A stretch of DNA of 64,000 bases from a virus. Shown here in pieces: positions 1-64,000 of the stretch. Within the stretch, counting starts at the first letter, position 1. Every line of letters starts with the position of its first letter. The position numbers were made by a program, and so were the translations under genes. The notes below the pieces were generated by a model. It worked only from the letters and a program-made list of their open reading frames with translations. It was not told the origin of the DNA and searched no databases. The stretch is from positions 54,935-118,934 of the IMG/VR virus record IMGVR_UViG_3300030419_002087, one strand, 5' to 3'.

Positions 1-2
1 CA

Positions 3-3000
3 ATTAGTGGCCAATGGGTAAGAGTATTTGGTGTAACTGCTAATACATTCGATATTCAAGTTTTAACCGCAGATCCATCTACAACTGGAAATGTACCTCC
101 ATCTTCTAATGTAGATCCACATACGTTTGTTTCTGCTGTTTCTAACAGTATTACAAGAGGTGTAGTTAGAACAGGTGGTGATTATCCACATACATTTGTA
201 AATGCTGTTGGAACTCACATTTATGTTGGTGGAACCTCATCTAATGCTATTACAATAACTGCTGGTAGTGTTCAGAAGGATGTAACTGATGCAACTTATA
301 TCCCAAGTACAGGTCTATTGACCATGACCATTGGTACTCATTCCTTCACAACTTCGGATACTGTGACAATTGGTGCTGATAAGTTGGCCTTTACTTGTGA
401 TGCTGATAATCATGCAACAACTCATTATTATCCTCGTGCAACTGATCCAGTATACAATATAGCAAGTCCAATTGAATCAGTTACTTCAACAACAATAACT
501 GTTGATGTAGGTTCACCGAAACAACAAGACGGTATTACTAAAGGTATTATTACAAAACCAACTTCTGTAATTAGACTTGCTGATAAATCATTAACATTTA
601 AGTGTTCTAGTGATAACTTCGTTACTCCACAGTCTTATCCACGTAACGGTACACAGAATCCACCAATAGTAACTGTTGGATTGGGAAGTGGATATAGTGA
701 TTTACAATACAGTGGTGGTTCTGGTAGTGGATTTAAGGCCTCTATTCAGATTGGTAGTGGTGGAAGTGTTACTGACTTTACTGTAGTAGATTCTGGTATA
801 GGATATAAGAATGATGAAGTATTGACTGTTGTGGGTGTTCCAACTGCAAATGGTGGATATAGCGCACATACAATTACAGTTAATTCTATTACTAATGATT
901 TGTTCTCTGGTTGGTCATTCGGTCAATTATTAGAACTTGACAGTTTTGCCGATCAATTTGATGGTAATCAAACTACATTTACATTAACTAGAACAACTGT
1001 TACTAAGGATATTGTAAATATCGCAAGTAATGATACTAGTATTGATGTTGGTAATAACTTATTAGTATTCTTAAATGATATATTGCAACAGCCAGGATCA
1101 AACTATACATTCAGTGGTGGTACTCAATTAACATTTAGTGAACCACCTAAAGCTGGTAGTAAGTTACAAGTTCTATTCTTTAGAGGATCTAATAAGGATG
1201 TAGATGATGGTAGTCCATTCATAACCATTAAGAAAGGTGATTATTTACAACTTGAAGAGAATGGAGTATATGAACAACAAGATCCAAGAAGAGTTATTGA
1301 AATTACTGGTGTTCAGAAAGTTCAAACAAACATTTATAATGGAGTTGGTATTAATGCTGATAAGACGTTTACTAGGCAAATGGCCTGGACTAAACAGAAA
1401 CAGGATTTGATTCTTGATAATCTACCACTTGCTAAAGATAGGAGTAATTATATCCCAAGAATAAGTCCTACTGCTTATATTATTCAGCCTGTAGGAGTTG
1501 GTTCACAGGAGATATTTGTTGATAACGCCTATCCAACATTCAGTGCATATGATAACAGAGCAACACCTAATGAAGTTCCTGGCGCTGGTATTGAGTTAGT
1601 TAAAGCTAATATTGTTGATCGTGCAGATGCCACAGTATCGGTTTCTGCTGGTGGAACAGTGTTTAATGCAGTTGTTACTGATGGTGGTGCAGGTTATCAA
1701 ACTGTTCCAACTGTTTCCTTTGCTGCAACTATTCCTAGAGTTCGTGAAATTGGTAAGAATTGGTCTTCCAGACTATCTGCTCTTGATCAGGATTGGAGAA
1801 CTGTTACACGTAACGGTTATGGATTATTTGTTATTGCTGGTGATAGTAGTGGTATTAATACATCATCTAATGGTAAACAGTGGTATGCTAGTGGTAACTC
1901 TACTACCTTTGGTGATATTAAAGGAATCGTTGGTATGGGTACTCATACTGTTTTGGTTGGTGCAAGTGGAACTTGTGGATTCTCAACAAATGGTAGAACG
2001 TTCAGTAAATCAACAGTTTACAGAAGGAGAAATGTATTCCCATTAGTATTCTGGGATGATATTACTCTTGCTGGTGATATGAATGCCCTCGCATATGGTG
2101 ATGGAATTGGTGTTGCAGTTGGTGCTGCTGGATCAATTATGTTCACTAAGCCTGGTGCGGCTGGATTTGGTACTGCTTTTGAATTGGCCCAGAAGTTTAG
2201 TTCTACTAATCTAAATGGTGTTGGTAATAACGGTAATGTATTTGTTGCCGTTGGTGTTAATGGAGAAATGTTGAGATCACCTAATGGTGAAAACTATGTT
2301 GGTGTAACTACTACAACTGTTTCTACTACTCTAAATGATGTTACTTATGCAGATGGTAAGTGGATTGCAGTTGGTGCTGCTGGAACTATTATCAAGTCTA
2401 CCGATGATGGTCAGAATTGGGCTGTAGTTTCTGCTGGTGGTACATTTGACTTGAATAAAGTTGGATATGCAAACAGTGTCTTTGTTGCAGTTGGTCAAAG
2501 TGGAATGGTTATGAATTCCGTTGACGGAACAAATTGGTATAAGAAATTCATTGGAGTTGGAACTGACTTTGCTGGTCTTGCATTTGGTGATAATAAATTT
2601 GTTGCTGCTGGTCTATCATCAGCAATATACACATCTGAGTTTGAATCTGTATCTGCTGCTGGTACTGCAACCGTTTCAGCTGCTGGAACAATAACTTCAA
2701 TTAATATTGATGATGGTGGTTTTGGTTATGATATAAATGCTCCTGTTGAAGTACTTGTTTCTGTTGAACCAGTTATTAGAGAAGTTATTACTAGTGTAAA
2801 TGCTGAAGGTGACTTTGGAGATGTTGTTAGTGTTGCAACTTCTGCTGCTGGAATAAACACCACAAGTCCAATGTTGATATTTGAACTTGATTCATCATCA
2901 TTCTTGAATCAGGCTGGATTTGGTAATATCTCTAAATCTGGTATCGCTGCTGGTGATTACTTTGTTGTTACTAATTCAACAACTGGAGTCGCCTGTACTT

Positions 3001-3329
3001 CTATAAATCTTGGTAATGAGATCGTCGGATCTGGTACAACATTCTTAGATAATGTCTATGTTGTTGGCCAAAGAGATGAGTCAACTAGTGGTATTGTTAC
3101 TGTATTCTGTAATGTAAGGAGTATCGCTGGAATAGGAACGACTACTTATAGTCCTAGAATTGGTAAATATAGTTGGGGAAGATTCTATAGTTTCCAAAGA
3201 GATAGACTTTCTCCTCAAGCTTTCCCTGCTTACACCAACAACGGTTCGGCAGGTATTGACACCAATCCAACAGTAGTCAGGATCAAACCACTCGCTGAAA
3301 ATTACAGCGACTTTGATCAGACATCATAA
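3..3329 (+). CDS. gp7: Baseplate wedge initiator gp7-like giant structural protein, C-terminal part (5' end outside window)
   Basis: Frame is open from base 3. G/T/S/V-rich beta-structure, cyanophage YPRxTDP repeats, YCF48/BNR-like propeller repeats (WIAVGAAGTIIKSTDDGQNW), C-terminal GKYSWG motif; lies directly upstream of gp8. Confidence 0.7.
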   Translation: MSGQWVRVFGVTANTFDIQVLTADPSTTGNVPPSSNVDPHTFVSAVSNSITRGVVRTGGDYPHTFVNAVGTHIYVGGTSSNAITITAGSVQKDVTDATYIPSTGLLTMTIGTHSFTTSDTVTIGADKLAFTCDADNHATTHYYPRATDPVYNIASPIESVTSTTITVDVGSPKQQDGITKGIITKPTSVIRLADKSLTFKCSSDNFVTPQSYPRNGTQNPPIVTVGLGSGYSDLQYSGGSGSGFKASIQIGSGGSVTDFTVVDSGIGYKNDEVLTVVGVPTANGGYSAHTITVNSITNDLFSGWSFGQLLELDSFADQFDGNQTTFTLTRTTVTKDIVNIASNDTSIDVGNNLLVFLNDILQQPGSNYTFSGGTQLTFSEPPKAGSKLQVLFFRGSNKDVDDGSPFITIKKGDYLQLEENGVYEQQDPRRVIEITGVQKVQTNIYNGVGINADKTFTRQMAWTKQKQDLILDNLPLAKDRSNYIPRISPTAYIIQPVGVGSQEIFVDNAYPTFSAYDNRATPNEVPGAGIELVKANIVDRADATVSVSAGGTVFNAVVTDGGAGYQTVPTVSFAATIPRVREIGKNWSSRLSALDQDWRTVTRNGYGLFVIAGDSSGINTSSNGKQWYASGNSTTFGDIKGIVGMGTHTVLVGASGTCGFSTNGRTFSKSTVYRRRNVFPLVFWDDITLAGDMNALAYGDGIGVAVGAAGSIMFTKPGAAGFGTAFELAQKFSSTNLNGVGNNGNVFVAVGVNGEMLRSPNGENYVGVTTTTVSTTLNDVTYADGKWIAVGAAGTIIKSTDDGQNWAVVSAGGTFDLNKVGYANSVFVAVGQSGMVMNSVDGTNWYKKFIGVGTDFAGLAFGDNKFVAAGLSSAIYTSEFESVSAAGTATVSAAGTITSINIDDGGFGYDINAPVEVLVSVEPVIREVITSVNAEGDFGDVVSVATSAAGINTTSPMLIFELDSSSFLNQAGFGNISKSGIAAGDYFVVTNSTTGVACTSINLGNEIVGSGTTFLDNVYVVGQRDESTSGIVTVFCNVRSIAGIGTTTYSPRIGKYSWGRFYSFQRDRLSPQAFPAYTNNGSAGIDTNPTVVRIKPLAENYSDFDQTS

Positions 3330-3356
3330 ATAAATCTATAGGAAAACCGTAGTAAA

Positions 3357-4964: not shown

Positions 4965-4968
4965 GAAC

Positions 4969-7900
4969 ATGCCACAAGAGACAAACCTCAATGTAAGTCC
5001 TTATTTTGACGATTTTAATGAGGACAAGAATTTTAATAGGGTTCTGTTTAAGCCCGCTACGCCAATTCAGGCTAGAGAATTAACACAATTACAATCGATT
5101 CTCCAAAATCAGATTGAAAGATTTGGACAACATTTCTTCAAAGAAGGATCTCAGGTTATCCCTGGCCAGATTGCTTATGACTCTCAATATAATGCTGTAG
5201 AACTTACTGAAAGTTTCTTAGGTATACAACTGACCAATTATATTGATCAATTAGTAGGTAAAACTATTAAAGGTGAACAATCTGGTGTTGTAGCTAAAGT
5301 TGTTAATAATTTAACTGCAACTAAGTCCGACAGAGGAAATAATACTCTTTATGTAAAATATCAGAAGTCTGGTGATGATTTTGAGACCGTAACTTTTCAG
5401 GACGGTGAAAATTTAATCTGTACTAGTGATATTGAATATGGTAATACTAGAATTGTAGCTAATAACCCTTTTGCTGCTTGTATTCCATCCAATGCATGTT
5501 CTATTGGATCTGCTGCTTCTATTGCGGATGGTGTTTATTTTGTTAGAGGATTCTTTGTAAAAGTAACTGCAAATACTGTAATTCTTGATCAGTATACTAA
5601 TGATCCAACATGTAGAGTTGGTCTGTTTATTAGTGAAAATTTAGTTACTGCTTATTCAGATGATACATTATTTGATAATGCATCTGGTTTCTCTAACTAT
5701 GCTGCGCCTGGAGCTGATAGACTTCAACTTCAAACTACTCTTATAAAGAAAGATATTGATGAATTTAACGATGAGAATTTCGTTGAATTGATGAGATTGA
5801 AGAGTGGTAATATTGAAAAATTTGTAGAAAAGACAGATTATAATATTTTAAAGGATGAATTGGCCAGAAGAACATATGAAACTAGTGGTGATTATTATGT
5901 AAAACCTTTCCAAGTTAATATTAAGGAATCTCTTAATAATAGACAAGGAAATGGTGGTATCTATTATAAAGATCAAAAAACTGCTGAAGGTAATGATCCA
6001 TCAAAAGATTTGATGGTTTATCAAATGTCGCCTGGTAAGGCATATGTAAAAGGATATGATATAAAGAAAATTACTTCTACAAATATTGATGTAGAAAAAC
6101 CAAGAACAATTAAGACTATAGAAAGTGATATAGTTCCTGTTGAAACAACATCTAGTGTTATTGTTAATAATGTTTATGGATCTCCAAAAATAGGTTTTGG
6201 ATCAACAGCTACAATAGATCTTTATACTGATAGAATTAATAGTGGTGGTAGTGCAAATGGTACATATATCGGTAATGCAAAGGTATATGACTTTAAATTA
6301 GAGAATACTCCATATGCAAATGCTGCAACCAACTATGAAGTTTCATTATACGATGTACAGACATTTACAGTATTAACAGTTAATACCGCACAAACATTAT
6401 CAACTCCAATTTATGTGGAGGGTGCAAGAAGTGGGGCCTCTGGTTATCTTAAGAGTAATGTTAGTAGTAGTGTTTCTTTAACACTTACTGGTACTAAAGG
6501 AGCCTTTATTGTAGATGAACCACTTAAAATAAATGGAGTTCAAGAATCTGTTAGTGTAACTTCAGTTGTTGAATATGATTTTGGAGATGTTAAATCATTC
6601 CATCAAAATAATTCACCTAATGTTTTTACAGCTGACTTAGATCTTACAGAAAAATTCTCTATTGCGCCTCCAGGCACACAGTTTACAATAACTAGTGGTG
6701 GTACTGTTACGGTTCCTGGCAAGAGATTTGCTGTAGGAATTAAAACTGGTGATATTGTTTCATATAATTTACAGAGTAATAGTGATATAACCTATAACAA
6801 GGTATCAGCATTGTCAGCTGATGGATCTACCATGACAATTGTTGCTTGCCCTCAAGATATTGCTGGGGTTTGTGATAAAGATCTACCAGGCGGTACTGTA
6901 TCTCCAAGTGATTTTGGTATTGTAAAACCAGCTTTACGTAATGCTCAGAATTCAAGACTAACATCAAATTTACCTCAAAGGTTTATTTCTTCTGTTGATC
7001 TTAAAAATGCTCAACTTTTAATTAGAAAACAGTATGTTCTTAATATATCCTCTAAGAGGGGTACTGTTACTGTAGATGATCCAGATTTATTCTTCCAACC
7101 TTTTGATGAGGAAGATTATAACTTAACATATTCAGATGGATCGATAGAAACTCTTTCATCTCAAAATGTTCAGTTTAACGCTGATTTTAAAACAATTACT
7201 TTACGAAGTTTAACTAAGACTTCTGATACTAATGCAGTTCTTGTTACCACACTTAAAAAGATAAATGTAACTTCAAAAGCTAAAACTCTTTCTAAATGTG
7301 CAAAAGTAACATTTAATAGATCAAAACATGATTATTCTGGAACTAATACTACATCATTTAATAATGGATTAACATATAATGCAATCTATGGAACTAGGGT
7401 AGAAGATGATCAGATATGTTTAAATGTTCCAGATGGTCTTAGGGTTCATGCTATATTTGAATCTTCAGGAACATCAGATCCATCTTTGCCTGGAGCTACT
7501 TTAATTAATAGAAGTGATGCTTTAACAAATACAATTCAAGGTGAACAAGTTCTTGGTGTAGAGAGTGGTGCTTTGGGCCAAGTTGTATCTACAACTACTA
7601 GTACATTTGAAGTAGTTTATAAGAATGAATTTATCTTCCAAGTTGGAGAAACACTTATTTTCCAATCTTCTGGTATAACTGGAGAAGTTTCTCAAGTTGT
7701 AGCTGGTGATAAGAATATTGGTGAAGATTTCCAGTTTGATAATGGAGATAGGAAGGAATATTTAGATTATTGTAGAATTGTCAGAGAACCAACTGCTGAT
7801 GAACCCAAGAAACGAATAACTGTTGTGTTTGACCACTATGTTGTTGATGCTGGATCTGGTGGAGATGTAGTTACTGTAAACAGTTATCCTTCAGATGCCT

Positions 7901-13079: not shown

Positions 13080-13298
13080 ATGGCTGGATCTTCACGATTT
13101 AGAGGTGGGGGTGTCAACGCAATTAAAGTGGCTGCTACGTCTCGTGCTGAGGCTGGCGGTACATTTCGATCACTTTCCGACACTGATGTGAGTAACCTAG
13201 GCGATGGTTATCTTGCAGTATATAATGTCACAACAGGTAAATGGACATCTCAAGTTAACTTGGGAGACAATACCGAAATAGACGGAGGCACCTTCTAA
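13080..13298 (+). CDS. Small structural/fibre-associated protein
   Basis: LSDTDVS...GYLAVYN...KW and IDGGTF C-terminus, shared in style with fibre proteins. Confidence 0.6.
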   Translation: MAGSSRFRGGGVNAIKVAATSRAEAGGTFRSLSDTDVSNLGDGYLAVYNVTTGKWTSQVNLGDNTEIDGGTF

Positions 13299-34546: not shown

Positions 34547-35935
34547 ATGTTCCAATCAGAACAGTTGCAAGAGAAGTGGGCCCCTCTACTAAATCATGAA
34601 GGTCTTGGTGAAATTAAAGACCCTCATCGTAGAGCAGTTACCGCTTGCTTGCTAGAAAACCAAGAAAGATTCTTAGCTGAAGAGTCTTCATTCTCCAGAG
34701 GGCAATCCCTCATGGAACAACCAACAAACGCAGTTGGTTCAAACGGATTTACAGGGGATGCTACAGCAGCAGGCCCAACAGCAGGTTTTGACCCCGTATT
34801 GATCAGTCTAATTAGACGTTCAATGCCTAACTTGCTTGCATATGATCTATGCGGCGTTCAGCCAATGAACGGCCCAACAGGTCTTATATTCGCAATGCGT
34901 TCTCGCTACGACGGACAGGCAGGAGGAGAAGCTCTATTCGATGAGCCTAACTCAGCCTTCTCTGCTGAGCGTGAAGGTAACGACGCAACAGCAGGTTGGA
35001 CATCAACCAACGCTGGTTTCGGTACAACTGGTCAAATCGGTTCTAATCCTTCCGTACTTGGTGCTACAGACGCTAACCAAGGTCTATACTCTGTTGGTCA
35101 GGGTATGCGTAAGGATGAGGCAGAAGGTCTTGGAGAATCTGGAAATGATTTCCACGAAATGGCCTTCAGCATCGAGAAAGTAACTGTTACAGCGAAATCT
35201 CGTGCGCTAAAAGCTGAGTATTCATTAGAACTTGCTCAAGACCTCAAGGCAATCCACGGATTGAACGCTGAGTCTGAGTTAGCAAATATTCTTTCTAGTG
35301 AGATCCTCGCTGAAATAAACAGAGAAGTTATCAGAACTATCTACAAAGTTGCTGAGTCAGGTGCTCAGAACAACGTAGCAACCGCTGGTACTTTCGACTT
35401 AGACGTTGACTCCAACGGTAGATGGTCTGTTGAGAAGTTCAAAGGACTTCTATTCCAGATCGAAAGAGATGCAAACGCAGTTGCACAAAGAACTCGTCGT
35501 GGAAAGGGCAACACAATCATCACTTCTGCTGATGTTGCTTCCGCACTAACCATGGCTGGTGTACTTGACTACACCCCAGCTCTTAATGCTAACCTAAACG
35601 TTGATGACACTGGCAACACATTTGCTGGAACAATCAATGGTAAGTATCGTGTATACATCGATCCTTATTCTGCAAACGTTGCTGCAAACCATTACTACGT
35701 AGTTGGTTACAAGGGTTCTAACCCATATGATGCAGGTTTATTCTACTGCCCATATGTACCGCTCCAGATGGTACGTGCCGTCAACGACGGAACCTTCCAG
35801 CCAAAAATCGGCTTTAAGACTCGTTACGGTATGGTTGCTAACCCATTCGCTGAGGGAACTACTCAGGGACTTGGCGCTCTTACTCAGAACGCAAACCGCT
35901 ACTACAGGCGCGTTAAGGTTACAAACCTAATGTAA
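34547..35935 (+). CDS. gp23: Major capsid protein gp23
   Basis: KWAPLL, GVQPMNGPTGLIFAMR, KSRALKAEYS, FQPKIGFKTRYG. Confidence 0.98.
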   Translation: MFQSEQLQEKWAPLLNHEGLGEIKDPHRRAVTACLLENQERFLAEESSFSRGQSLMEQPTNAVGSNGFTGDATAAGPTAGFDPVLISLIRRSMPNLLAYDLCGVQPMNGPTGLIFAMRSRYDGQAGGEALFDEPNSAFSAEREGNDATAGWTSTNAGFGTTGQIGSNPSVLGATDANQGLYSVGQGMRKDEAEGLGESGNDFHEMAFSIEKVTVTAKSRALKAEYSLELAQDLKAIHGLNAESELANILSSEILAEINREVIRTIYKVAESGAQNNVATAGTFDLDVDSNGRWSVEKFKGLLFQIERDANAVAQRTRRGKGNTIITSADVASALTMAGVLDYTPALNANLNVDDTGNTFAGTINGKYRVYIDPYSANVAANHYYVVGYKGSNPYDAGLFYCPYVPLQMVRAVNDGTFQPKIGFKTRYGMVANPFAEGTTQGLGALTQNANRYYRRVKVTNLM

Positions 35936-36021: not shown

Positions 36022-36819
36022 ATGACTGCACTGATTGACCCAAAAAAGTATAGTGAGACCGTTGACCTATTGAGGTCATTTTTTTTGTCTAAAGGTTTCC
36101 TAGAGGTTCATACTCAAAACCGTTTAAGTATCCTTGCTGCATGTGAAGATCCAGAAACAGTAGCAACATACAACTACGCTGGCAATATATGGCCATTACC
36201 ACAGACAGGACAGATGTGGTTAGAATATGAATTACTTTCCAACCCCGAAGCAGAGGGGTTTTTCTGTGTCTCCACTTCATACAGAGCAGAACCAAATCCA
36301 GTTCCAGGCCGACATGAGATTATATTTCCCATGTTTGAGTTTGAAATGAAGGGAGGTGTAGAAGAACTTAAGAAGATGGAAATTGAATTATGTGAACATC
36401 TTGGATTACCATTAGATACTGAAAATATTCAGACCTATGATGATTGGGGTAATCAGTTCAATGCAAAAGAACTTGACCACGATCATGAAGATAAGATTGG
36501 TACTGGTATGATTACTGATTTCCCTGAGTTCACATCACCATTCTGGAATATGGCAAGGAATGATGATGGTACTAGTAAAAAGATTGATGTTATCCTTGGT
36601 GGTAAAGAAACAATCGGTAGTGCTGAAAGAAGTACAGACAAAAAACAGATGAGAGATACATTCTATACCATCTCGGATGGCCAGTATGCACAACTCATCA
36701 TTGATTTGTTTGGTAAGGAAAGAGTAGAAAAAGAACTAGAAGAGTTCTTAGAGTTTGATTTCTTCCCCAGAAGTGGTGGAGGTATTGGTATGCAACGTCT
36801 AATGTCAGCCCTTTCATAG
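36022..36819 (+). CDS. Class II aminoacyl-tRNA synthetase-like protein (Asp/Asn-type catalytic core, no anticodon-binding domain)
   Basis: Motif 1 LRSFFLSKGFLEVHT, LPQTGQMWLE, motif 2 SYRAEP...GRH..IFPMFEFE, ETIGSAER, motif 3 PRSGGGIGMQRL; only 265 aa, with no N-terminal OB fold. Confidence 0.85.
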   Translation: MTALIDPKKYSETVDLLRSFFLSKGFLEVHTQNRLSILAACEDPETVATYNYAGNIWPLPQTGQMWLEYELLSNPEAEGFFCVSTSYRAEPNPVPGRHEIIFPMFEFEMKGGVEELKKMEIELCEHLGLPLDTENIQTYDDWGNQFNAKELDHDHEDKIGTGMITDFPEFTSPFWNMARNDDGTSKKIDVILGGKETIGSAERSTDKKQMRDTFYTISDGQYAQLIIDLFGKERVEKELEEFLEFDFFPRSGGGIGMQRLMSALS

Positions 36820-36828
36820 GGCTTTCAA

Positions 36829-36913
36829 TGTGAGGTGGCGAAACGGTAAACGCTCTAGTCTGTTTAACTAGTGTTCCTGGCGGGACTTATAGGTTCGACT
36901 CCTATCCTCACAG
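36829..36913 (+). tRNA. Atypical tRNA, anticodon GTT (Asn), with long variable arm; CCA not encoded
   Basis: Acceptor TGTGAGG/CCTCACA+G73; D arm GCG-AAACGGTAAA-CGC; anticodon stem CTAGT/ACTAG with loop CTGTTTA; variable stem GTTCC-TGGC-GGGAC; T arm ATAGG-TTCGACT-CCTAT. Confidence 0.88.
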
Positions 36914-38210: not shown

Positions 38211-39660
38211 AATCTCAAAAAAGAATGAAGCTTATCTGAAGATTCAAGCAGATCCCCATGTCTTCTATGAATTATCAGATTATTTTACTTTCGATGTTCC
38301 AGGCGCAAAGTTCATGCCTCAGTATCGAAGTAAATACTGGGATGGTAAGATTAGATTATTTAACACAGGCTCTGGTGAGATCTATGCTGGTCTAGTAGAT
38401 AAAGTTGTTACTTTTCTAGACAGGCGTGGATATGAATATGAATTTGAACATAGTGAATACTATGGAAACCCCTATGAGGAGAACGAGATGGTTTCTCCCG
38501 AAGGGGTTTTTGATTATATGAATAAGATATCTAGTATTAAACCAAGACCTTATCAGGTAAAAGGTGTATATGATGCACTGAGACAAAACAGAAGGTTATT
38601 AGTATCTCCTACTGCTTCTGGTAAATCATTAATGATCTATACCATAGTTAGGTATATGATTGAGAAGGAAAATATTGTTTTATTAGTTGTTCCTACTACA
38701 TCACTTGTAGAACAGATGTATAAGGACTTTAAAGAATATGGATGGAACTCAGAAAAATATTGTCATAAAGTCTATTCTGGTAAAGAAAAATTTGATCCTA
38801 GGCCTGTAACTATTACAACTTGGCAATCTGTCTATAAATTAGATCGTAAATTCTTTTCAAGATATGATTGTGTTATAGGTGATGAAGCACACCTATTTAA
38901 GTCAAAATCTTTAGTTAGTATCATGACAAAACTACGTGATGCAAAATATAGATTTGGTTTTACTGGTACATTGGATGGTACACAAACTCATAAGTGGGTA
39001 CTAGAAGGTTTATTTGGCCCAACATATAAGATTATTAAGACTGATGAATTAATGGAAAAGGGTCATCTTGCAAAGTTAGATATTAAAATTCTTTTATTAA
39101 AACATGATCCCCAGATGTTTGATACTTATGAAGATGAGGTTCAATTTATTATTCAAAATGAAAAACGTAATAATTTTATTAAGAACCTTGCTTTAGATTT
39201 AAAAGGAAATAGTCTCATATTATACAGTAGAGTGGAATCACATGGAGCTGTATTATACGACTTAATAAATAATTCCGTAACTGATCGAGAAGTATTTTTT
39301 GTTCACGGTGGTGTGGACGCTCAAGAAAGAGAACAGGTCAGAGAAATAACTGAAAAGGAAAACAATGCAATTATCATCGCTAGCTACGGCACTTTTAGTA
39401 CTGGGATTAACATTAAGCGGCTGCACAACGTCATCTTCGCCAGTCCCTCAAAGTCCAGAGTTAGAAACCTCCAGTCCATTGGTAGAGTCCTTAGAAAGGG
39501 AACAAACAAAGTAAAAGCAATCTTATATGATATTGCCGATGACTGTACTAAAGGTTCTCGAAAAAATTATACTTTAAATCATCTCATAGAGAGGGTTAAA
39601 ATCTATAACGAAGAAAATTTTAATTATGAAATAATCCCTATACGAATGAATTCCTCATGA
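38194..39660 (+). CDS. uvsW: RNA-DNA/DNA helicase UvsW
   Basis: WDGKIRLF, SPTASGKS, DEAH, QSIGRVLR; probable GTG start. Confidence 0.95.
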   Translation: MDTTVKISKKNEAYLKIQADPHVFYELSDYFTFDVPGAKFMPQYRSKYWDGKIRLFNTGSGEIYAGLVDKVVTFLDRRGYEYEFEHSEYYGNPYEENEMVSPEGVFDYMNKISSIKPRPYQVKGVYDALRQNRRLLVSPTASGKSLMIYTIVRYMIEKENIVLLVVPTTSLVEQMYKDFKEYGWNSEKYCHKVYSGKEKFDPRPVTITTWQSVYKLDRKFFSRYDCVIGDEAHLFKSKSLVSIMTKLRDAKYRFGFTGTLDGTQTHKWVLEGLFGPTYKIIKTDELMEKGHLAKLDIKILLLKHDPQMFDTYEDEVQFIIQNEKRNNFIKNLALDLKGNSLILYSRVESHGAVLYDLINNSVTDREVFFVHGGVDAQEREQVREITEKENNAIIIASYGTFSTGINIKRLHNVIFASPSKSRVRNLQSIGRVLRKGTNKVKAILYDIADDCTKGSRKNYTLNHLIERVKIYNEENFNYEIIPIRMNSS

Positions 39661-57465: not shown

Positions 57466-57494
57466 TTGCCATCTTTCATGGGATCGTATATAAT
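57466..57494 (+). promoter_or_regulatory. Sigma70-type promoter for the ncRNA
   Basis: TTGCCA-17 nt-TATAAT. Confidence 0.75.
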
Positions 57495-57522
57495 TCCTGT
57501 GTTGGGCCGACGGGTTCGACAC

Positions 57523-57694: not shown

Positions 57695-57715
57695 CCCTAT
57701 AACTAATTTGGAATA

Positions 57716-58042: not shown

Positions 58043-58274
58043 AACGGTTCTTATAGCCGAAGTTACAGAAGTGATGGCCGAGATAGGTGATCCAGATTGT
58101 AAATTAAGTAATACTCATCAACTATTAGATAATGTTACAGAATTAGAAGATCGTATAGTACCTTGGTTAGATTTCACCAATCAATCTGATATAATATTAA
58201 GGTCATCCGATATTCTTACTGTCGTAGAACCCAAACCTGAAATCTTAGCACACTACATTACATTACTTGATTGA
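58005..58274 (+). CDS. Conserved hypothetical protein upstream of gp43 (distant paralog of previous)
   Basis: GDPDCKL...PWL...SSDILTVVEP. Confidence 0.75.
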   Translation: MPQNIQVLILTNKTVLIAEVTEVMAEIGDPDCKLSNTHQLLDNVTELEDRIVPWLDFTNQSDIILRSSDILTVVEPKPEILAHYITLLD

Positions 58275-60766
58275 TGAGATTCTACACGAACGTCCAAATG
58301 GTCGGGGATCAGATTCTTCTTAGAGGATATGAGAACGGTAAACGTTTTTCTAACCGAGAAGTCTTTAACCCGACTCTTTTTGTGCCTACTAAAAAGAAGT
58401 CAAAATATAAAACACTGGAAGGTGAAACTGTAGAACCTATCCAGCCTGGCACTATTCGTGAAACTAGAGATTTTATCAAGAAGTATAATGGTGTAGAGGG
58501 ATTTAATATTTACGGATTTGAACGGTTCATCTATCAATATATTTCTGATAACTATTCTGTTAATCAGATTGAATTTGATATGAGTAAGATCAATCTATTA
58601 ACGATTGATATTGAAACCAAATCTGAAAATGGATTCCCTGATGTTGAGACAGCTTCAGAAGAAGTTCTGTTGATTACTATTCAGGATTTTAACACCAAAG
58701 ATATTATTACATGGGGTACAGGCCCATTTAATAACAAACAGGATAATGTAGATTATCGTCAATGTAGAGATGAGAATCAATTACTTAATTCATTCATACA
58801 ATGGTGGATTGAAAATACTCCTGATGTTGTTACTGGTTGGAACTGTGAGTTCTTTGATTTACCATATCTTGCAACACGTATCAGTCGTGTACTTGGCGAC
58901 AAGTTAATGAAGAGACTTTCTCCTTGGGGTCTTGTGACCCAGCAGGAGATCTTTGTTATGGGGAGAAAGAACTTTTGTGTTGATATTGGTGGTGTATCTA
59001 TATTGGATTATATGCGTCTGTATAGATGGTCGCCTGGTACTCCAAACCAAGAGAGCTTTAGATTAGATTATATAGCTCAACAGGAACTTGGTCAACAGAA
59101 ATTAGATCACTCTGAGTTTGATACATTCAAAGATTTCTATACAAAGGGTTGGCAGAAGTTTGTAGAATATAATATTGTTGACGTTGAACTTGTTGATCGT
59201 TTTGAGGATAAGTTAAAATTAATAGAACTTGCCCTTACTATGGCCTATGATGCCAAAGTAAACTATCAAGATATATTTTTCCAAGTTAGACTTTGGGATT
59301 GTATCATTTATAATTATCTCAAACAGAGAAATATTGTTATCCCTCCAAAAGAAAGATCTGATAAAGATGAAAAATACGCAGGAGCCTATGTCAAGGAACC
59401 AACGCCGGGACGCTATGATTGGGTTGTTAATTTTGACCTCAATAGCCTCTATCCTCATCTTATTATGCAATATAATATCAGTCCAGAAACCCTCTGGGAG
59501 ACTCGACATCCCAGTGCGAGCGTTGAGAGGCTCTTAAATCGAGAGATAGAAATAAATCCAGAGTTTGCAACATGTGCTAATGGAGCACAGTATAGGAAAG
59601 ATGTACGTGGATTTTTGCCTGAGTTAATGCAGAAATATTATGATGAACGTGTGATCTTTAAAAAGAAGATGATTGAGGCTAAGAAGAAAAATGAGAAGAC
59701 CCCCAGTAAGGCATTGGAAAAGGAAATTGCAAGATGCAACAACATCCAAATGGCGAAGAAGATCTCTCTTAATTCTGCTTATGGTGCTATCGGCAATCAG
59801 TACTTCAGGTATTATAAATTAGCGAACGCCGAAGCGATTACTCTATCAGGTCAGGTTAGTATCCGATGGATAGAGAATAAGATGAACCAGTACCTTAATA
59901 AAATTTTGTCCACTAAGGATAAGGATTATGTTATTGCATCTGATACTGATAGCATTTATCTTGATCTCGGCCCTCTGGTTCGGCAAGTTTATGGTGACAA
60001 GATACCTGATAAAGGGAAGGTCGTTGACTTTCTCGATAAGGCTTGCGAAGATCAGATTGAGGTATTCATTGAGAAAAGTTATAAGGAACTTGCGGAGTAT
60101 GTGGCTGCGTATGATCAGAAGATGTTCATGAAGAGAGAGAACATTGCTGATCGTGGAATATGGACTGCAAAGAAGAGATACATATTGAACGTATGGGATA
60201 GTGAGGGTGTCAGATATGCTGATCCCAAACTTAAGATAATGGGTATTGAAGCTGTTAAGTCATCAACTCCCGCTCCTTGTCGTCAGGCTATTAAGGATGC
60301 CCTTAAAGTTATGATGAAGGGTACGGAAGATCAGATGATAGATTTCATTGAAAATTTTCGTAAACAGTTTAAAGAACTTCCTCCAGAAGATATATCCTTT
60401 CCACGTTCTGTGAGTGAAGTTACAAAGTATAAGAGTAATAAAGCCATCTATGAGAAGGGTACACCAATCCATTGTCGTGGATCTTTATTATTCAATCACC
60501 ATGTAAAGAGACTTGGCCTTGAAGGTAAGTATTCTTTAATTAAAAATGGTGAGAAGATTAAGTTCTGTTATTTACGCAATCCCAACCCCATCCATGAGAA
60601 TGTAATGTCTTTCATTCAGGAGTTTCCTAGAGAACTTGGTATCGAAAAGTATGTTGATTATGACTTACAATTTGACAAAAGTTTTCTAGACCCTTTACGA
60701 ATTATATTAGATGTGATAGGATGGCAAGTGGAGAGGACTGCAAATCTAGAATCTTTTTTTAGTTGA
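58271..60766 (+). CDS. gp43: DNA polymerase gp43 (family B)
   Basis: DIET exonuclease motif, FDLNSLYPH, KISLNSAYG, SDTDS, KKRY; uninterrupted. Confidence 0.98.
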   Translation: MMRFYTNVQMVGDQILLRGYENGKRFSNREVFNPTLFVPTKKKSKYKTLEGETVEPIQPGTIRETRDFIKKYNGVEGFNIYGFERFIYQYISDNYSVNQIEFDMSKINLLTIDIETKSENGFPDVETASEEVLLITIQDFNTKDIITWGTGPFNNKQDNVDYRQCRDENQLLNSFIQWWIENTPDVVTGWNCEFFDLPYLATRISRVLGDKLMKRLSPWGLVTQQEIFVMGRKNFCVDIGGVSILDYMRLYRWSPGTPNQESFRLDYIAQQELGQQKLDHSEFDTFKDFYTKGWQKFVEYNIVDVELVDRFEDKLKLIELALTMAYDAKVNYQDIFFQVRLWDCIIYNYLKQRNIVIPPKERSDKDEKYAGAYVKEPTPGRYDWVVNFDLNSLYPHLIMQYNISPETLWETRHPSASVERLLNREIEINPEFATCANGAQYRKDVRGFLPELMQKYYDERVIFKKKMIEAKKKNEKTPSKALEKEIARCNNIQMAKKISLNSAYGAIGNQYFRYYKLANAEAITLSGQVSIRWIENKMNQYLNKILSTKDKDYVIASDTDSIYLDLGPLVRQVYGDKIPDKGKVVDFLDKACEDQIEVFIEKSYKELAEYVAAYDQKMFMKRENIADRGIWTAKKRYILNVWDSEGVRYADPKLKIMGIEAVKSSTPAPCRQAIKDALKVMMKGTEDQMIDFIENFRKQFKELPPEDISFPRSVSEVTKYKSNKAIYEKGTPIHCRGSLLFNHHVKRLGLEGKYSLIKNGEKIKFCYLRNPNPIHENVMSFIQEFPRELGIEKYVDYDLQFDKSFLDPLRIILDVIGWQVERTANLESFFS

Positions 60767-60767
60767 T

Positions 60768-60962
60768 ATGAAAGATCAAAACTCAATTCATGAAGAGGAA
60801 ACTAAAGACCAGAAATGGAATCGTGGACTTGATATCTTTTATGAATCTGTCCATAAACCAGATAATGCATTGAGGGCATGTGCTCATAATCAGAAATGTT
60901 ATTATGAGTTAATGGAAGTTAAAGATGTTGTTTTGGAGTACCTTAAAACACTAAGGAGATGA
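60768..60962 (+). CDS. Small conserved hypothetical protein
   Basis: KWNRGLDIF.ESV.KPD..LR.CAHNQKCY motif. Confidence 0.7.
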   Translation: MKDQNSIHEEETKDQKWNRGLDIFYESVHKPDNALRACAHNQKCYYELMEVKDVVLEYLKTLRR

Positions 60963-61120
60963 AACCAATCAAATGGTCTGCACAAATATTACTACCAAGT
61001 AATAGATTGCAAAAGGTTGAGTTTATGTGTGCATCTAATTTAAGAGAAGATGCAGAGACACGTTGTAAATCTATGTTTGGTGTTACTGATGTTCGTCAAT
61101 TAAAAAGAGAATGGAATTGA
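60959..61120 (+). CDS. Small hypothetical protein (53 aa)
   Basis: MKPIKWSAQILLPSNRLQKVEF...; AGGAG RBS, ATGA overlap. Confidence 0.6.
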   Translation: MKPIKWSAQILLPSNRLQKVEFMCASNLREDAETRCKSMFGVTDVRQLKREWN

Positions 61121-61275
61121 ATGAAGGTGACATAGTTACCGAAATACTACAACTTGGTAGCCTTATTGGCACATGTCAAGAAACCAGCACTCTAAATTCT
61201 ATGGGTAGATCTTCTAAGAAGATTGTGATAGAATATGATGTAAAACAAAAGGAGCAAGATGGACTTACCAATTAA
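61111..61275 (+). CDS. Small hypothetical protein (54 aa)
   Basis: MELNEGDIV...GRSSKKIVIEY. Confidence 0.55.
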   Translation: MELNEGDIVTEILQLGSLIGTCQETSTLNSMGRSSKKIVIEYDVKQKEQDGLTN

Positions 61276-61432
61276 TGATGAAGAACTATCAAGATTAGTT
61301 TGGTGGACTAGTCACATGATGAATGAGGACGAACTACATAGAAAGTTGAAGTTGGTTAAAGAAGTCAGGGATATGAATCCTGGCGGCCCTTATAAAAAAA
61401 TACTTCGTGAAGATCACGGGATGGTTATTTAA
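61259..61432 (+). CDS. Small hypothetical protein (57 aa)
   Basis: MDLPINDEEL...NPGGPYKKILRE; AAGGAG RBS; TAATG coupling to uvsX. Confidence 0.6.
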   Translation: MDLPINDEELSRLVWWTSHMMNEDELHRKLKLVKEVRDMNPGGPYKKILREDHGMVI

Positions 61433-62481
61433 TGGATTTCCTTAAAGAAATAGTAAAAGAAATAGGTGATGAATACACCCAACTCGCCAAAGACATCGAA
61501 GAAGACGAAAGATTCATCGACACAGGTTCATACATCTTTAATGGACTGGTTAGCGGTTCCATTTATGGCGGCGTATCTAGTAATAAGATTACTGCCATCG
61601 CTGGCGAGTCTAGCACTGGTAAAACTTATTTTGCCCTTGCTGTCGTCAAAAACTTTTTGGATACTAATCCTGATGGTTATTGTCTCTATTTTGACACTGA
61701 GGCCGCAGTTAATAAAGGATTACTTGAGTCTCGTGGAGTTGACCTAAAGAGATTGGTTGTTGTTAATGTAGTAACCATTGAGGAGTTTAGACAGAAGGCA
61801 CTTAAGGCAGTTGATATATACTTAAAGAAGGCTCAAGAAGATCGCAAACCCTGTATGTTTGTGTTAGACTCATTGGGTATGCTTTCTACAGAGAAGGAAA
61901 TAAATGATGCATTAAATGATAAACAGGTTCGGGACATGACCAAATCCCAACTTGTTAAAGGTGCATTTAGGATGTTAACTCTGAAACTTGGTCAATCAAA
62001 TATTCCACTTATAGTTACAAATCACACATACGATGTTATCGGCAGTTACATCCCTACTAAAGAAATGGGAGGAGGCTCTGGTCTCAAATATGCCGCGTCT
62101 ACGATCATTTATCTCAGCAAAAAAAAGGAAAAGGATCAGAGCGAGGTTGTTGGACACATTATCACGGCTAAGACGGTTAAATCGAGATTGAGTCGTGAAG
62201 CACGATCAGTCGGAGTTAGGCTCTATTTTGATGAACGAGGCTTGGACAAATTCTATGGGCTCCTTGAGCTCGGAGAACGTCATGGAGTCTTCAAAAAAAT
62301 GGGCACACGTTACCAATTCGGCGAGAAAAAAGTATATGCAAAGACTGTTCTTGAGAATCCTCAAGAATATTTTACCGAAGAAATTATGGAGCAATTAGAT
62401 GCCGCGGCGAGAAAAGAATTCTCCTATGGTTCAGGTGATTCCAAAGATCCTGAGGCCAGAGAATTGTCAACAGTTGATTAG
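61432..62481 (+). CDS. uvsX: RecA-like recombinase UvsX
   Basis: AGESSTGKT, YFDTE, LDSLGML, MGGGSGLKYAAS. Confidence 0.96.
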   Translation: MDFLKEIVKEIGDEYTQLAKDIEEDERFIDTGSYIFNGLVSGSIYGGVSSNKITAIAGESSTGKTYFALAVVKNFLDTNPDGYCLYFDTEAAVNKGLLESRGVDLKRLVVVNVVTIEEFRQKALKAVDIYLKKAQEDRKPCMFVLDSLGMLSTEKEINDALNDKQVRDMTKSQLVKGAFRMLTLKLGQSNIPLIVTNHTYDVIGSYIPTKEMGGGSGLKYAASTIIYLSKKKEKDQSEVVGHIITAKTVKSRLSREARSVGVRLYFDERGLDKFYGLLELGERHGVFKKMGTRYQFGEKKVYAKTVLENPQEYFTEEIMEQLDAAARKEFSYGSGDSKDPEARELSTVD

Positions 62482-62971
62482 TACTTTTGAGGATTGTGTT
62501 GGTTCGGGATACTCTGAAAGAATTGATAATAACGGTACTCCTAGATTTACTCAGGTAAATCTTAATCAAGTTTATATGGATGTTGTTCCATTTCTTGTAC
62601 AGAGAGTAAAGGTAGCAATTGATATTTACAAAGATGTTGTTGGTTCAAGAGCTGATTATCTTCCTAAACCAAAACAGATGGAAGAGTTTCGTGTTAAACG
62701 ATATGAGCCAGAAACTAATGATAGATTTGATGAACATATAGATGCAGCTGATTATCCTTCTGCTAGAAGATATTTGGCATTTTTATTTTATCTTAATGAT
62801 GTTCAAAAAGGAGGACAGACAGAATTCCGTTTTCATGGTAGAATGATTAGACCTGAGGCTGGATCGGTTCTTGTCTTTCCACCTACATGGGAATATCCAC
62901 ATATAGGTCTACCACCCATCAGTGGGCCAAAATACATAATGAGTACATATTTACACTATGGACAGAATTGA
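62426..62971 (+). CDS. 2OG-Fe(II) oxygenase (prolyl 4-hydroxylase-like)
   Basis: HID (HxD), YLNDV..GG.T.F, VFPP.W.YPH, KY. Confidence 0.85.
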   Translation: MVQVIPKILRPENCQQLISTFEDCVGSGYSERIDNNGTPRFTQVNLNQVYMDVVPFLVQRVKVAIDIYKDVVGSRADYLPKPKQMEEFRVKRYEPETNDRFDEHIDAADYPSARRYLAFLFYLNDVQKGGQTEFRFHGRMIRPEAGSVLVFPPTWEYPHIGLPPISGPKYIMSTYLHYGQN

Positions 62972-64000
62972 GACAACGATTATTCGTAACTTGATTCATG
63001 ATCAGGATTATCTACGTAAGATTGTTCCTTTTATAGAACCAGATTATTTTGATAGTCACAAAGATCGTGTAGTATTTGAAGAGATTGCGGAGTTTATTGT
63101 TAAGTATGATAAGCCTGCAACTCAGGAAATTCTTGGTATTGAATTAGAAAGTAGAACTGATGTTACGGATGATGAATATAAGGAAATAAATGAATTTATT
63201 AGTGGGTTAGAAGAAGTTCCTACTAATAAAGAATGGTTAATAGATGCCACAGAAAAGTGGTGTAGAGATCGTGCTATATACTTAGCGTTGATGAAGTCCA
63301 TCAAGATTGCAGATGGACAAGACGACAAGAAAGATAGAGATGCTATCCCTAGTATCCTTAGTGATGCTTTGTCGGTTTCTTTTGACAACCATATTGGACA
63401 CGATTATTTAAACGACTATCAGGAACGTTATGAGGCCTACCACAGGAAAGAAAATCGTATACCGTTTGATCTTGAGTATCTTAATAAGATTACGAAAGGT
63501 GGTCTCCCTAATAAAACTCTTAATATCGCTCTTGCTGGTACGGGTGTCGGAAAAAGTTTATTCATGTGCCACATGGCTAGCTCCGTCTTGTTGCAAGGAC
63601 GGAACGTTTTATACGTTACAATGGAAATGGCAGAAGAACGCATTGCTGAACGAATTGATGCCAACCTCCTTAATGTCAATATTCAGGAACTTACGGATCT
63701 TCCGAAGATGATGTATGAATCTAAGATTAATAAACTTAGTAAGAAAACACAAGGTACATTAATTGTTAAAGAATATCCTACAGCATCAGCACATTGCGGC
63801 CATTTCAAGGCATTAATACAAGAACTTGCACTTAAGAAATCATTTAAACCTGATATAATATTCATAGATTACTTGAATATATGTGCTTCATCAAGATATA
63901 AGGCGAACGGTAATGTCAACTCATACTCCTACATCAAAGCGATTGCAGAAGAACTCCGTGGTCTTGCGGTTGAAGCGAATCTTCCAATTGTATCTGCGAC
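62958..64000 (+). CDS. gp41: Replicative DNA helicase gp41 (DnaB-like), truncated by window end
   Basis: MDRIETTIIRNL, ALAGTGVGKS Walker A, TMEMAEERIAERIDANL, KEYPT, IDYLNI; runs off the window. Confidence 0.95.
   Translation, partial: MDRIETTIIRNLIHDQDYLRKIVPFIEPDYFDSHKDRVVFEEIAEFIVKYDKPATQEILGIELESRTDVTDDEYKEINEFISGLEEVPTNKEWLIDATEKWCRDRAIYLALMKSIKIADGQDDKKDRDAIPSILSDALSVSFDNHIGHDYLNDYQERYEAYHRKENRIPFDLEYLNKITKGGLPNKTLNIALAGTGVGKSLFMCHMASSVLLQGRNVLYVTMEMAEERIAERIDANLLNVNIQELTDLPKMMYESKINKLSKKTQGTLIVKEYPTASAHCGHFKALIQELALKKSFKPDIIFIDYLNICASSRYKANGNVNSYSYIKAIAEELRGLAVEANLPIVSA

What the first reader, a model, noticed from the sequence alone, without database searches (positions are those of the whole stretch)
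1..64000. CCNGG and CCGG occur only when overlapped by GCC/GGC: footprint of a phage cytosine-modification system
Seen: I checked by eye roughly 60 Pro-Gly codon pairs (which force CCNGG). All are either CCN-GGC or are preceded by a G-ending codon (GCCNGG, the same word on the other strand), although GGT/GGA dominate elsewhere. Rare codons are recruited to satisfy the rule (tcg cct ggt at about 6028 and 59030, gcg cct gga at about 5704, acg ccg gga at about 59402). The CCGG sites I found are likewise all GCCGG/CCGGC, and even the tRNA variable loop reads CCTGGC. Known: CCWGG/CCNGG/CCGG are common restriction targets blocked by cytosine methylation. Inference: unprotected sites were purged, and the sites kept are those masked by a modification at GC or GCC. 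This predicts a short-motif cytosine methyltransferase or other modifier encoded outside this window.
Basis: partly seen in the sequence, partly recalled or inferred. Interest (0 to 1): 0.78.

Follow-up and report, generated by a model that had tools for sequence, protein, structure and literature searches.

The report
Restriction sites kept only beside G-C
This marine cyanophage has erased many restriction-enzyme target words and keeps CCNGG and CCGG only where a neighbouring G or C makes a G-C-C step, which looks like the footprint of a DNA mark whose enzyme was not found.

Summary
In the window, 67 of 67 CCNGG and 13 of 13 CCGG sites carry a 5' G or 3' C. In the whole 118.9 kb contig the counts are 114 of 114 and 31 of 31. 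A codon-preserving shuffle expects 101.6±6.2 and 62.4±7.3 unflanked sites.

The sequence is a T4-like cyanomyovirus contig, about 60% complete, near Kanaloavirus. It also lacks GGWCC, TTCGAA, GTGCAC, GGTACC and CTCGAG entirely.

The same flank rule holds for other words and other phages: CCGG in five further genomes, CTCGAG 10 of 10, CACGTG 7 of 7, CCATGG/CCTAGG 6 of 6. One of those phages is S-B43, whose cytosines in GC motifs are known to be carboxymethylated (PMC12783734). This favours a modification at G-C(-pyrimidine) over enzyme-specific flank preferences.

No modifier was found. The contig has no C5-MTase/CmoX, N4/N6-MTase, TGT or Mom. Among complete relatives that share the CCGG rule, none of four has a C5-MTase or Mom, and S-8S55, the only one searched for them, has no N4/N6-MTase or TGT. 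Cytosine methylases are sporadic in host genomes.

This scan has already noted the same footprint in a dozen or more other marine T4-like phage genomes. Verdict: a real and strong footprint, with the mechanism inferred and the enzyme unknown.

The parts
1..64000 (.). Window-wide rule: every CCNGG (67) and every CCGG (13) has a 5' G or a 3' C. GGWCC, TTCGAA, GTGCAC, GGTACC, CTCGAG, TGCGCA, GCATGC, CGATCG, GTCGAC, GACGTC and CACGTG are all 0 in the window.
   Evidence: contig-wide
6028..6036 (+).
59030..59038 (+). TCG CCT GGT: the same device in the DNA polymerase-sized ORF 58271-60766
5704..5712 (+). GCG CCT GGA: Pro-Gly rescued by a preceding GCG codon
59402..59410 (+). ACG CCG GGA: carries CCGG and CCGGG, both preceded by G
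36876..36881 (+). CCTGGC inside the tRNA variable arm: a non-coding site that also obeys the rule
35550..35555 (.). CCATGG followed by C. It is the only CCATGG in the window; contig-wide 4 of 4 are flanked, against 20-31 sites expected.
13196..13201 (.). CCTAGG followed by C. With the site at 38797 these are the only two in the contig, and both are flanked.
38797..38802 (.). CCTAGG followed by C
62958..63998 (+). N-terminal part of the gp41-type primase-helicase gene, cut by the contig end. In phage S-B43 the cmoA/cmoX/cmoY modification genes lie just downstream of this gene and MazG, so the syntenic slot lies beyond the held sequence.

Best explanation
The phage is under restriction pressure from many host (cyanobacterial-type) endonucleases and has removed their target words by synonymous change.

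Words that begin with C can survive if a G lies directly 5' of that C, or equivalently a C lies 3' on the other strand. The most likely reason (inferred) is that the phage's DNA carries a post-replicative mark on the cytosine of G-C(-pyrimidine) steps. One marked strand then makes the site look hemimodified and uncuttable.

CCNGG is forced by every Pro-Gly pair and cannot be removed, so selection has set the flank instead: GGC for Gly, or a preceding codon ending in G. GGNCC is forced by Gly-Pro and survives only as GGSCC, which contains GCC.

Shown here: the purge, the flank rule, the codon recruitment, and the fact that the rule covers several unrelated words and several phages, including one with a proven GC-motif cytosine modification.

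Inferred: that a modification exists in this phage, its target (GCY rather than every GC), and that the phage encodes it. The enzyme is unidentified.
For: (1) The rule is absolute and far from chance.

(2) Selection acts on the flank. Gly after Pro is GGC in 70 of 98 cases, against 242 of 2785 elsewhere. The other 28 Pro-Gly pairs all follow a codon ending in G. Gly-Pro uses GGC or GGG in 79 of 79.

(3) The same flank rule holds for unrelated words. CCGG: S-8S55 22 of 22, S-PRM1 32 of 32, S-CAM9 37 of 37, Sf-FS3 12 of 12, S-B43 8 of 8. CTCGAG: 10 of 10 survivors in five genomes. CACGTG: 7 of 7. CCATGG and CCTAGG: 6 of 6 in this contig. The background for non-depleted C-initial palindromes is 0.25-0.31.

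(4) Positive control. In S-B43, whose cytosines in GC motifs are carboxymethylated by CmoX (PMC12783734; abstract, sections 9, 11 and 13 and passages read), none of the 17 GC-containing 6-mer palindromes tested is strongly depleted, and the survivors of its depleted words all follow G.

(5) In this contig and four of the five other genomes without CmoX, 0 of 9 palindromes containing G-C-pyrimidine fall to 10% of expectation or less (1 of 9 in Sf-CH5), against 3-4 of 6-8 words that contain only G-C-purine.

(6) The rule is not a by-product of coding. Relatives with 70-80% MCP identity do not show it.

(7) A universal host methylase is unlikely. PF00145 is found in 15 of 151 sampled genomes of the host family and PF01555 in 35 of 151.
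Against: No chemistry was measured.

No known modifier is present in the 119 kb held: PF00145, PF01555, PF02086, PF01702 and PF25680 give no match, and there are no homologues of the S-B43 cmo ORFs.

Complete relatives that obey the CCGG and CTCGAG rule also lack them. PF00145 is absent from S-8S55, S-CAM9, S-PRM1, Sf-FS3 and Sf-CH5 (the one weak S-8S55 hit is a DUF6267-unrelated DUF6321 protein). PF01555 and PF01702 were tested only in S-8S55 and are absent there. PF25680 is absent from S-8S55, S-CAM9, S-PRM1 and Sf-FS3. Mu Mom gives a best E of 1.6 against all ORFs of the seven genomes.

Flanked CCGG is itself depleted in some genomes: S-8S55 22 against 58 expected, Sf-FS3 12 against 57, S-B43 8 of about 160 CCGG expected in all, and 14 IMG/VR loci 3 against 39. 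So any protection is partial, or recent.

GGCC contains GCC but is still scarce in Sf-FS3, Sf-CH5 and S-B43.

L248, a short relative with a similar footprint, has no cmo genes in the post-MazG slot.

Two of 8 CGCG sites and the single GCATGC site are not rescued.
Confidence: 0.58

Rival explanations
1. The host enzymes themselves have the specificity H^CC(N)GGD. Related endonucleases of the CCGG family would read the outer base pair and reject G:C, so flanked sites are simply not targets and no modification exists.
For: No modifier gene was found in complete relatives that share the rule. CCGG-family enzymes do read outer bases and occur in 4-bp-core and 5-bp-core versions: W/CCGGW for BsaWI, R/CCGGY for Bse634I, T/CCNGGA for PfoI (abstracts listed). 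One non-cognate half-site is enough to spare a palindromic site (own knowledge).
Against: The same flank rule holds for words outside that family: CTCGAG 10 of 10, CACGTG 7 of 7, CCATGG and CCTAGG 6 of 6. That would need four or more unrelated enzymes with the same dislike of a flanking G. Other cyanomyoviruses avoid flanked CCGG too (3 against 39 expected in 14 loci). I recall no enzyme with an H...D outer specificity, and none appeared in the listing; no search was aimed at it.
Confidence: 0.15
2. The protective mark is made by a host methyltransferase common to the phage's hosts and is acquired during each infection.
For: The CCGG rule occurs in at least two myovirus lineages with no recognisable modifier. 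It would explain why gene content does not track the footprint.
Against: C5-MTases occur in 15 of 151 and N4/N6-MTases in 35 of 151 sampled genomes of the host family, and in 0 of 5 named Synechococcus genomes for C5. Sf-CH5, isolated on the same strain as S-8S55 and Sf-FS3, does not avoid CCGG. Most relatives avoid GGCC, which a general GCC mark should protect.
Confidence: 0.07
3. The mark is on guanine in GGC, the other strand of GCC: a 7-deazaguanine inserted by a DpdA transglycosylase, as in phage CAjan.
For: CAjan carries dPreQ0 at GA and GGC, and this blocks HaeIII (PMC7544227; abstract and passages read). The DNA pattern alone cannot tell which strand of GCC/GGC is marked.
Against: There is no TGT/DpdA family match in the contig or in complete S-8S55. 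TTCGAA contains GA and is fully avoided. CTCGAG survivors need GCT, which is AGC on the other strand, not GGC.
Confidence: 0.04
4. Self-avoidance. The phage encodes its own nuclease(s) that shred GC-rich host DNA at these words, and its genome must lack every cuttable copy.
For: The avoidance is absolute, and the avoided words are far commoner in GC-rich host DNA. This was not tested here.
Against: It does not explain a common flank exemption across several different words. The avoided set (GGWCC, TTCGAA, TGCGCA and others) matches classical cyanobacterial restriction specificities (recalled). Relatives avoid different sets.
Confidence: 0.04

Closest known systems
CmoA/CmoX/CmoY cytosine hypermodification of Synechococcus phage S-B43 (Yang et al., Nat Commun 2025, PMC12783734; abstract, sections 9, 11 and 13 and passages read)
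   Same: It is a T4-like cyanomyovirus with a post-replicative mark on the C of G-C steps that blocks a restriction enzyme (HhaI). Its genome shows the same flank rule (CCGG 8 of 8, CACGTG 6 of 6). Its gene cluster lies just after gp41 and MazG, which is exactly where this contig ends.
   Different: No CmoX, CmoA or CmoY homologue is present in the held contig or in six comparison genomes. S-B43 tolerates GTGCAC (18 sites), GCATGC and TGCGCA, whereas this phage lacks them. The inferred target here is therefore GC-pyrimidine, not every GC.
Restriction-site (short palindrome) avoidance in virulent phages, and blocking of sites by overlapping methylation such as Dam or Dcm overlap (own knowledge)
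   Same: Target words are depleted against a codon-preserving null, and a site is spared when a neighbouring base brings it under another enzyme's mark.
   Different: Here the exemption is absolute, genome-wide and imposed by codon choice at every forced Pro-Gly and Gly-Pro pair. It also lets the motif of an unseen mark be read from sequence alone.
dPreQ0 at GA and GGC in phage CAjan (Kot et al., NAR 2020, PMC7544227; abstract and passages read)
   Same: It is a phage DNA modification confined to a di- or trinucleotide context that includes GGC, and it protects GGCC from HaeIII.
   Different: It acts on guanine, needs DpdA and preQ0 genes that are absent here, and also covers GA, which is not protected in this phage.
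Mu Mom, a GNAT that glycylates adenine in DNA using Gly-tRNA(Gly) (Silva et al., Nat Commun 2026, PMC13219725; abstract, section 38 and passages read)
   Same: A single late phage enzyme makes a context-limited base modification that blocks restriction. The window has an aaRS-core plus tRNA cassette that could in principle supply a charged tRNA.
   Different: There is no Mom-family match in this contig or in four relatives, and none by direct comparison in seven genomes. Mom modifies adenine.

Membership tests
Restriction-site avoidance in phage genomes | Short, mostly palindromic target words are depleted against a null that keeps protein sequence and codon usage | tested here: met
   GGWCC 0 against 83±5; TTCGAA 0 against 32; GGTACC 0 against 19.5; HCCNGGD 0 against 101.6; HCCGGD 0 against 62.4
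Restriction-site avoidance in phage genomes | The avoided set differs between related phages, as host range would predict | tested here: met
   GGWCC is 0 here but 165 in S-8S55. Most relatives avoid GGCC but this phage does not. S-B43 tolerates TTCGAA and GGTACC.
CmoA/CmoX/CmoY (5cxmC/5gcxmC at GC) | A C5-methyltransferase homologue (CmoX) is encoded by the phage | tested here: inconclusive
   PF00145 has no match in the 119 kb held, but the record is about 60% complete and ends just before the syntenic slot. The same search finds CmoX in S-B43 at E 4.9e-54.
CmoA/CmoX/CmoY (5cxmC/5gcxmC at GC) | CmoA and CmoY homologues lie beside CmoX | tested here: inconclusive
   tblastn with the three S-B43 cmo ORFs gives no hit in the contig. 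The missing 40% is untested.
CmoA/CmoX/CmoY (5cxmC/5gcxmC at GC) | Every GC step is a target, so GC-containing restriction words are tolerated | tested here: not met
   GTGCAC 0, TGCGCA 0 and GCATGC 1 in the contig, against 18, 2 and 5 in S-B43
DpdA / 7-deazaguanine DNA modification | A TGT-family transglycosylase is encoded by the phage | tested here: inconclusive
   PF01702 has no match in the contig or in complete S-8S55. The contig is incomplete.
Mom-type tRNA-dependent DNA acyltransferase | A Mom-family GNAT (PF25680) is encoded by the phage | tested here: inconclusive
   No match in the contig or in S-8S55, S-CAM9, S-PRM1 and Sf-FS3. Local phmmer gives a best E of 1.6. The contig is incomplete, and remote structural relatives were not searched.
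CCGG-family endonuclease with an outer-base specificity H...D | The host enzyme fails to cut unmodified GCCGG and GCCNGG | not testable with these tools
   Needs enzyme assays. The indirect evidence is against it (same rule at CTCGAG, CACGTG, CCATGG and CCTAGG).

The most novel reading that the evidence does not exclude
Kanaloavirus/Makelovirus-type cyanomyoviruses, including this phage, mark the cytosine of G-C-pyrimidine steps with an enzyme of a class not yet recognised as a DNA modifier. They have no C5-MTase or Mom homologue, and S-8S55 also lacks an N4/N6-MTase and a TGT homologue. The genome text alone gives the enzyme's motif. A bolder and less likely extension: the window's late-expressed class II aaRS core and its odd tRNA (36022-36913) charge a private donor for a tRNA-dependent DNA modification, by analogy with Mom.
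Probability: 0.33. Interest if true: 0.82.

Novelty: new variant of a known kind. Interest (0 to 1): 0.6.

Why it matters
If the reading holds, a sparse DNA mark limited to one short context can protect a whole genome, because the phage rewrites its codons so that every unavoidable restriction site falls under the mark.

The motif of the mark and the specificities of the hosts' enzymes can then be read from sequence alone, even in uncultured ocean viruses.

The closest cultured relatives (S-8S55, S-PRM1, S-CAM9) show the CCGG and CTCGAG part of the footprint yet lack every modifier family searched for in them. That gives a direct, testable pointer to an undiscovered DNA-modifying enzyme in abundant marine phages.

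If the rival holds instead, it would define endonucleases with an unusual 'not G' outer specificity.

Tried and rejected
**Sequencing artefact or chance.** Rejected. The rule is imposed through codon choice, large ORFs are intact, and p is about 1e-54.

**GGCC as the overlapping word.** Rejected. The base at -2 is A 20, C 46, G 27, T 29.

**The weak PF00145 hit in S-8S55 (E 0.011).** It lies in a lysine-rich DUF6321 protein, so it is spurious.

**Gene-content screen.** I looked for genes present in S-8S55, S-PRM1, S-CAM9 and Sf-FS3 and absent from Sf-CH5. It returned 10 ORFs, including the end-protector, the gp59 loader and a 176-aa protein that is a DenV-like pyrimidine-dimer glycosylase. None is a plausible modifier. 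The screen is also weak in principle, because a phage can carry the modifier without meeting the enzyme that would reveal it.

**Clade-specific cluster in S-8S55.** It consists of glycan-type enzymes: GT6 and a sulfotransferase.

**The post-MazG slot.**
- S-8S55 holds a 344-aa unknown, DUF6267, a cytidylyltransferase-like protein and a 552-aa unknown.
- L248 holds a Trp-halogenase homologue, a 585-aa unknown and a cytidylyltransferase-like protein.
- None of these tracks the footprint.

**DUF6267 as a candidate.** It has an invariant KWDG motif and no PDB match by sequence. The AlphaFold model has pLDDT 83.4. Foldseek found nothing at E of 0.001 or better. VIA-align's top rows are RNA and DNA ligases at Z 5.2-7.8, which is middling. 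I read it as a ligase-type nucleotidyltransferase, not a base modifier.

**Podoviruses Syn5 and P60.** They show almost no site avoidance, so they are uninformative.

**Glycosylated 5-hydroxycytosine (PMC13326640; abstract only).** That is a nucleotide-level total replacement of cytosine, so it is not context-specific.

**Marine methylome papers.** PMC8919816 and PMC9516812 do not mention GCC, CCGG or cyanophages in their main text (term look-ups).

**Searches for prior print of this footprint.** Searches found no paper describing it, and 'S-8S55' gave 0 papers. The supplements of PMC12783734 list CmoX-bearing contigs and could bear on whether this virus is among them.

**Not done.** The 265-aa aaRS core (PF00152) was not pursued further. 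No sequencing-run look-up, read laying or complex prediction was made.

Full report
**What the sequence is.** The window is the last 64 kb of a single 118,934-bp IMG/VR viral contig. It is classed as linear and CheckV puts it at about 60% complete. It is a T4-like cyanomyovirus with the usual gene order: baseplate, neck, terminase, sheath, tube, portal, protease, scaffold, MCP, then UvsW, gp46/47, clamp, polymerase, UvsX and gp41. The portal is 87% identical to those of Kanaloavirus phages (S-CAM9, S-8S53/55/56) and Makelovirus S-PRM1. DNA identity to S-8S55 is about 77%. G+C is 36.7%.

**The observation.** It holds without a single exception.
- In the window, all 67 CCNGG and all 13 CCGG sites have a 5' G or a 3' C.
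- In the contig the counts are 114 of 114 and 31 of 31.
- Markov models of order 0-3 expect 47-62 unflanked CCNGG in the window.
- A shuffle that keeps every protein and each gene's codon usage expects 101.6±6.2 unflanked CCNGG and 62.4±7.3 unflanked CCGG in the contig. Zero were observed for both.
- The total number of CCNGG is only mildly low, at 114 against 143.9. So the flanks are what is constrained, not the core.
- The reason is clear in the codons. Of 108 coding sites, 98 are Pro-Gly pairs, which force CCNGG. Gly after Pro is GGC in 70 of 98 cases, against 242 of 2785 elsewhere. The remaining 28 pairs all follow a codon ending in G.

**More than was reported.** An unbiased word scan shows a broad purge. 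GGWCC occurs 0 times against 83±5 expected. TTCGAA, GTGCAC, GGTACC, CTCGAG, TGCGCA, CGATCG, GTCGAC and GACGTC are all 0. GCATGC occurs once, CCATGG 4 times (20-31 expected) and CCTAGG twice. GGSCC (115 against 42) and GGCC (300 against 146) are enriched, because Gly-Pro is written GGC or GGG in 79 of 79 cases. The survivors of CCATGG (4 of 4), CCTAGG (2 of 2) and CCGCGG (1 of 1) also carry the flanking G or C. The base at -2 shows no preference, so the overlapping word is not GGCC.

**Not a property of these genes.**
- In 80 IMG/VR relatives found through the MCP, only 163 of 790 CCNGG and 73 of 276 CCGG sites are flanked.
- None of the 30 loci of 9 kb or more obeys the CCNGG rule, and most avoid GGCC.
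- Among 80 further loci around gp41, only L248 (6 flanked, 0 unflanked), L294 (4, 0) and partly L289 (5, 2) resemble this phage.

**How general the flank rule is.** Whole-genome counts show HCCGGD = 0 with flanked copies kept in several phages:

| Genome | CCGG sites flanked |
|---|---|
| S-8S55 | 22 of 22 |
| S-PRM1 | 32 of 32 |
| S-CAM9 | 37 of 37 |
| Sf-FS3 (another lineage) | 12 of 12 |
| S-B43 | 8 of 8 |
| Sf-CH5 | does not avoid CCGG |

Survivors of other depleted C-initial words follow the same rule: CTCGAG 10 of 10 in five genomes and CACGTG 7 of 7. CG-initial words do not (3 of 10). The background for non-depleted C-initial palindromes is 0.25-0.31. CTGCAG is 9 of 9 in this contig, but that word is flanked in 31-61% of cases elsewhere, so it is weak evidence. 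Because several unrelated target words share one exemption, a property of the DNA is more likely than a shared quirk of many enzymes.

**Positive control and the likely motif.** S-B43 is a T4-like cyanomyovirus in which CmoX carboxymethylates cytosine C5 in GC motifs, using Cx-SAM made by CmoA. CmoY then adds glycine, and the mark blocks HhaI (PMC12783734). In S-B43 none of the 17 GC-containing 6-mer palindromes tested is strongly depleted, and the survivors of its depleted words all follow G. In this contig and in S-8S55, S-PRM1, S-CAM9 and Sf-FS3, palindromes containing G-C-pyrimidine are never at 10% of expectation or less (0 of 9 each; 1 of 9 in Sf-CH5). G-C-purine-only words are depleted in 3-4 of 6-8 cases: GTGCAC, TGCGCA, GCATGC, ACGCGT. 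That fits a GC-Y target here against GC-any in S-B43, although differences in host enzymes could give the same contrast. In this contig 6 of 8 CGCG sites are preceded or followed by GC, making GCCGCG (p 3e-6). That would place a marked C next to the site, or on its first C.

**The missing enzyme.**
- The contig has no match to PF00145, PF01555, PF02086, PF01702 or PF25680 and no homologue of the S-B43 cmo ORFs.
- The PF00145 search is sensitive, since it finds CmoX in S-B43 at E 4.9e-54.
- The contig ends inside gp41. In S-B43 the cmo genes lie just after gp41 and MazG, so the syntenic slot is not held.
- Complete relatives that share the CCGG and CTCGAG rule have no C5-MTase and no Mom. S-8S55 also has no N4/N6-MTase or TGT.
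- Their post-MazG slot holds unknowns, a cytidylyltransferase-like protein and DUF6267. I read DUF6267 as a ligase-type nucleotidyltransferase from its KxDG motif and middling structural matches to RNA ligases (Z up to 7.8).
- L248's slot holds a halogenase homologue and unknowns.
- A gene-content screen gave no plausible candidate.
- Earlier notes of this scan name a 'Mom-like' gene in other lineages. I could not confirm that lead here at the sequence level.

**Host side.** In 151 sampled genomes of the family around Synechococcus MIT S9451, C5-MTases occur in 15 and N4/N6-MTases in 35, and 0 of 5 named Synechococcus genomes have a C5-MTase. A universal host mark is therefore unlikely, while patchy restriction-modification systems fit the varied avoidance sets.

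**Points against the favoured reading.**
- Nothing was measured chemically.
- Flanked CCGG is itself depleted 2.6- to 13-fold in S-8S55, Sf-FS3, S-B43 and 14 IMG/VR loci.
- GGCC stays scarce in Sf-FS3, Sf-CH5 and S-B43.
- Two CGCG sites and one GCATGC site are not rescued.

**Verdict.** I refine the target to a G-C-pyrimidine cytosine context, with S-B43 as the closest known system. The predicted methyltransferase was not found and cannot be excluded for this incomplete genome. Its closest cultured relatives lack every modifier family I searched for in them, which leaves either an unrecognised enzyme class (about one in three) or, less likely, endonucleases with intrinsic flank specificity.

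**Prior notice.** Follow-ups of this scan have already described the same footprint in a dozen or more other marine T4-like phage genomes, so it is not new to this scan. My literature searches found no paper describing it.

Noticed in passing
window 36022-36913: A 265-aa ORF right after the MCP gene matches only the catalytic core of class II Asp/Lys/Asn-tRNA synthetases (PF00152, E 3.7e-15) and has no anticodon-binding domain. It ends 9 nt before an 85-nt tRNA with a GTT anticodon and a long variable arm. S-8S55 has no gene at this position. Since Mu Mom uses a charged tRNA to modify DNA (PMC13219725), the cassette could be a private donor for some acyl transfer, but no Mom-like gene was found.
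   Followed up: partly
contig-wide; window 1-64000: GGWCC is completely absent (0 against 83±5 expected), while GGSCC is 2.7-fold enriched. Every Gly-Pro pair uses GGC or GGG (79 of 79). IMG/VR relatives L020 and L049 also have GGWCC = 0 but do not follow the CCNGG flank rule, so the two features can occur separately.
   Followed up: yes
S-8S55 129968-131170 (L083 29968-31170); L267 4652-5839: DUF6267 is a very abundant marine viral family with no named member (8000 or more database hits). It has an invariant KWDG motif, and its model matches RNA and DNA ligases (Z 5.2-7.8). It lies beside, and in some phages is fused to, a cytidylyltransferase-like protein, which suggests an RNA or DNA end-repair pair.
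   Followed up: partly
L248 3131-4627: A flavin-dependent halogenase homologue (Trp_halogenase, E 1e-88) sits in the post-MazG slot of a relative with a similar footprint. Sf-CH5 has one annotated after its MCP gene. Its substrate in cyanophages is unknown to me.
   Followed up: no
contig CGCG sites (8 in all; 5 in the window): CGCG is 4-fold depleted (8 against 33 expected), and 6 of the 8 sites read GCCGCG or CGCGGC (p 3e-6). Here the GCC overlap is shifted by one base compared with CCNGG.
   Followed up: partly
Syn5 (L118) and P60 (L119): The two T7-like cyanopodoviruses show almost no restriction-site avoidance (CCGG 186 and 145, GGCC 330 and 270). The myoviruses of the same host genus are very different, which suggests another anti-restriction strategy in the podoviruses.
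   Followed up: no
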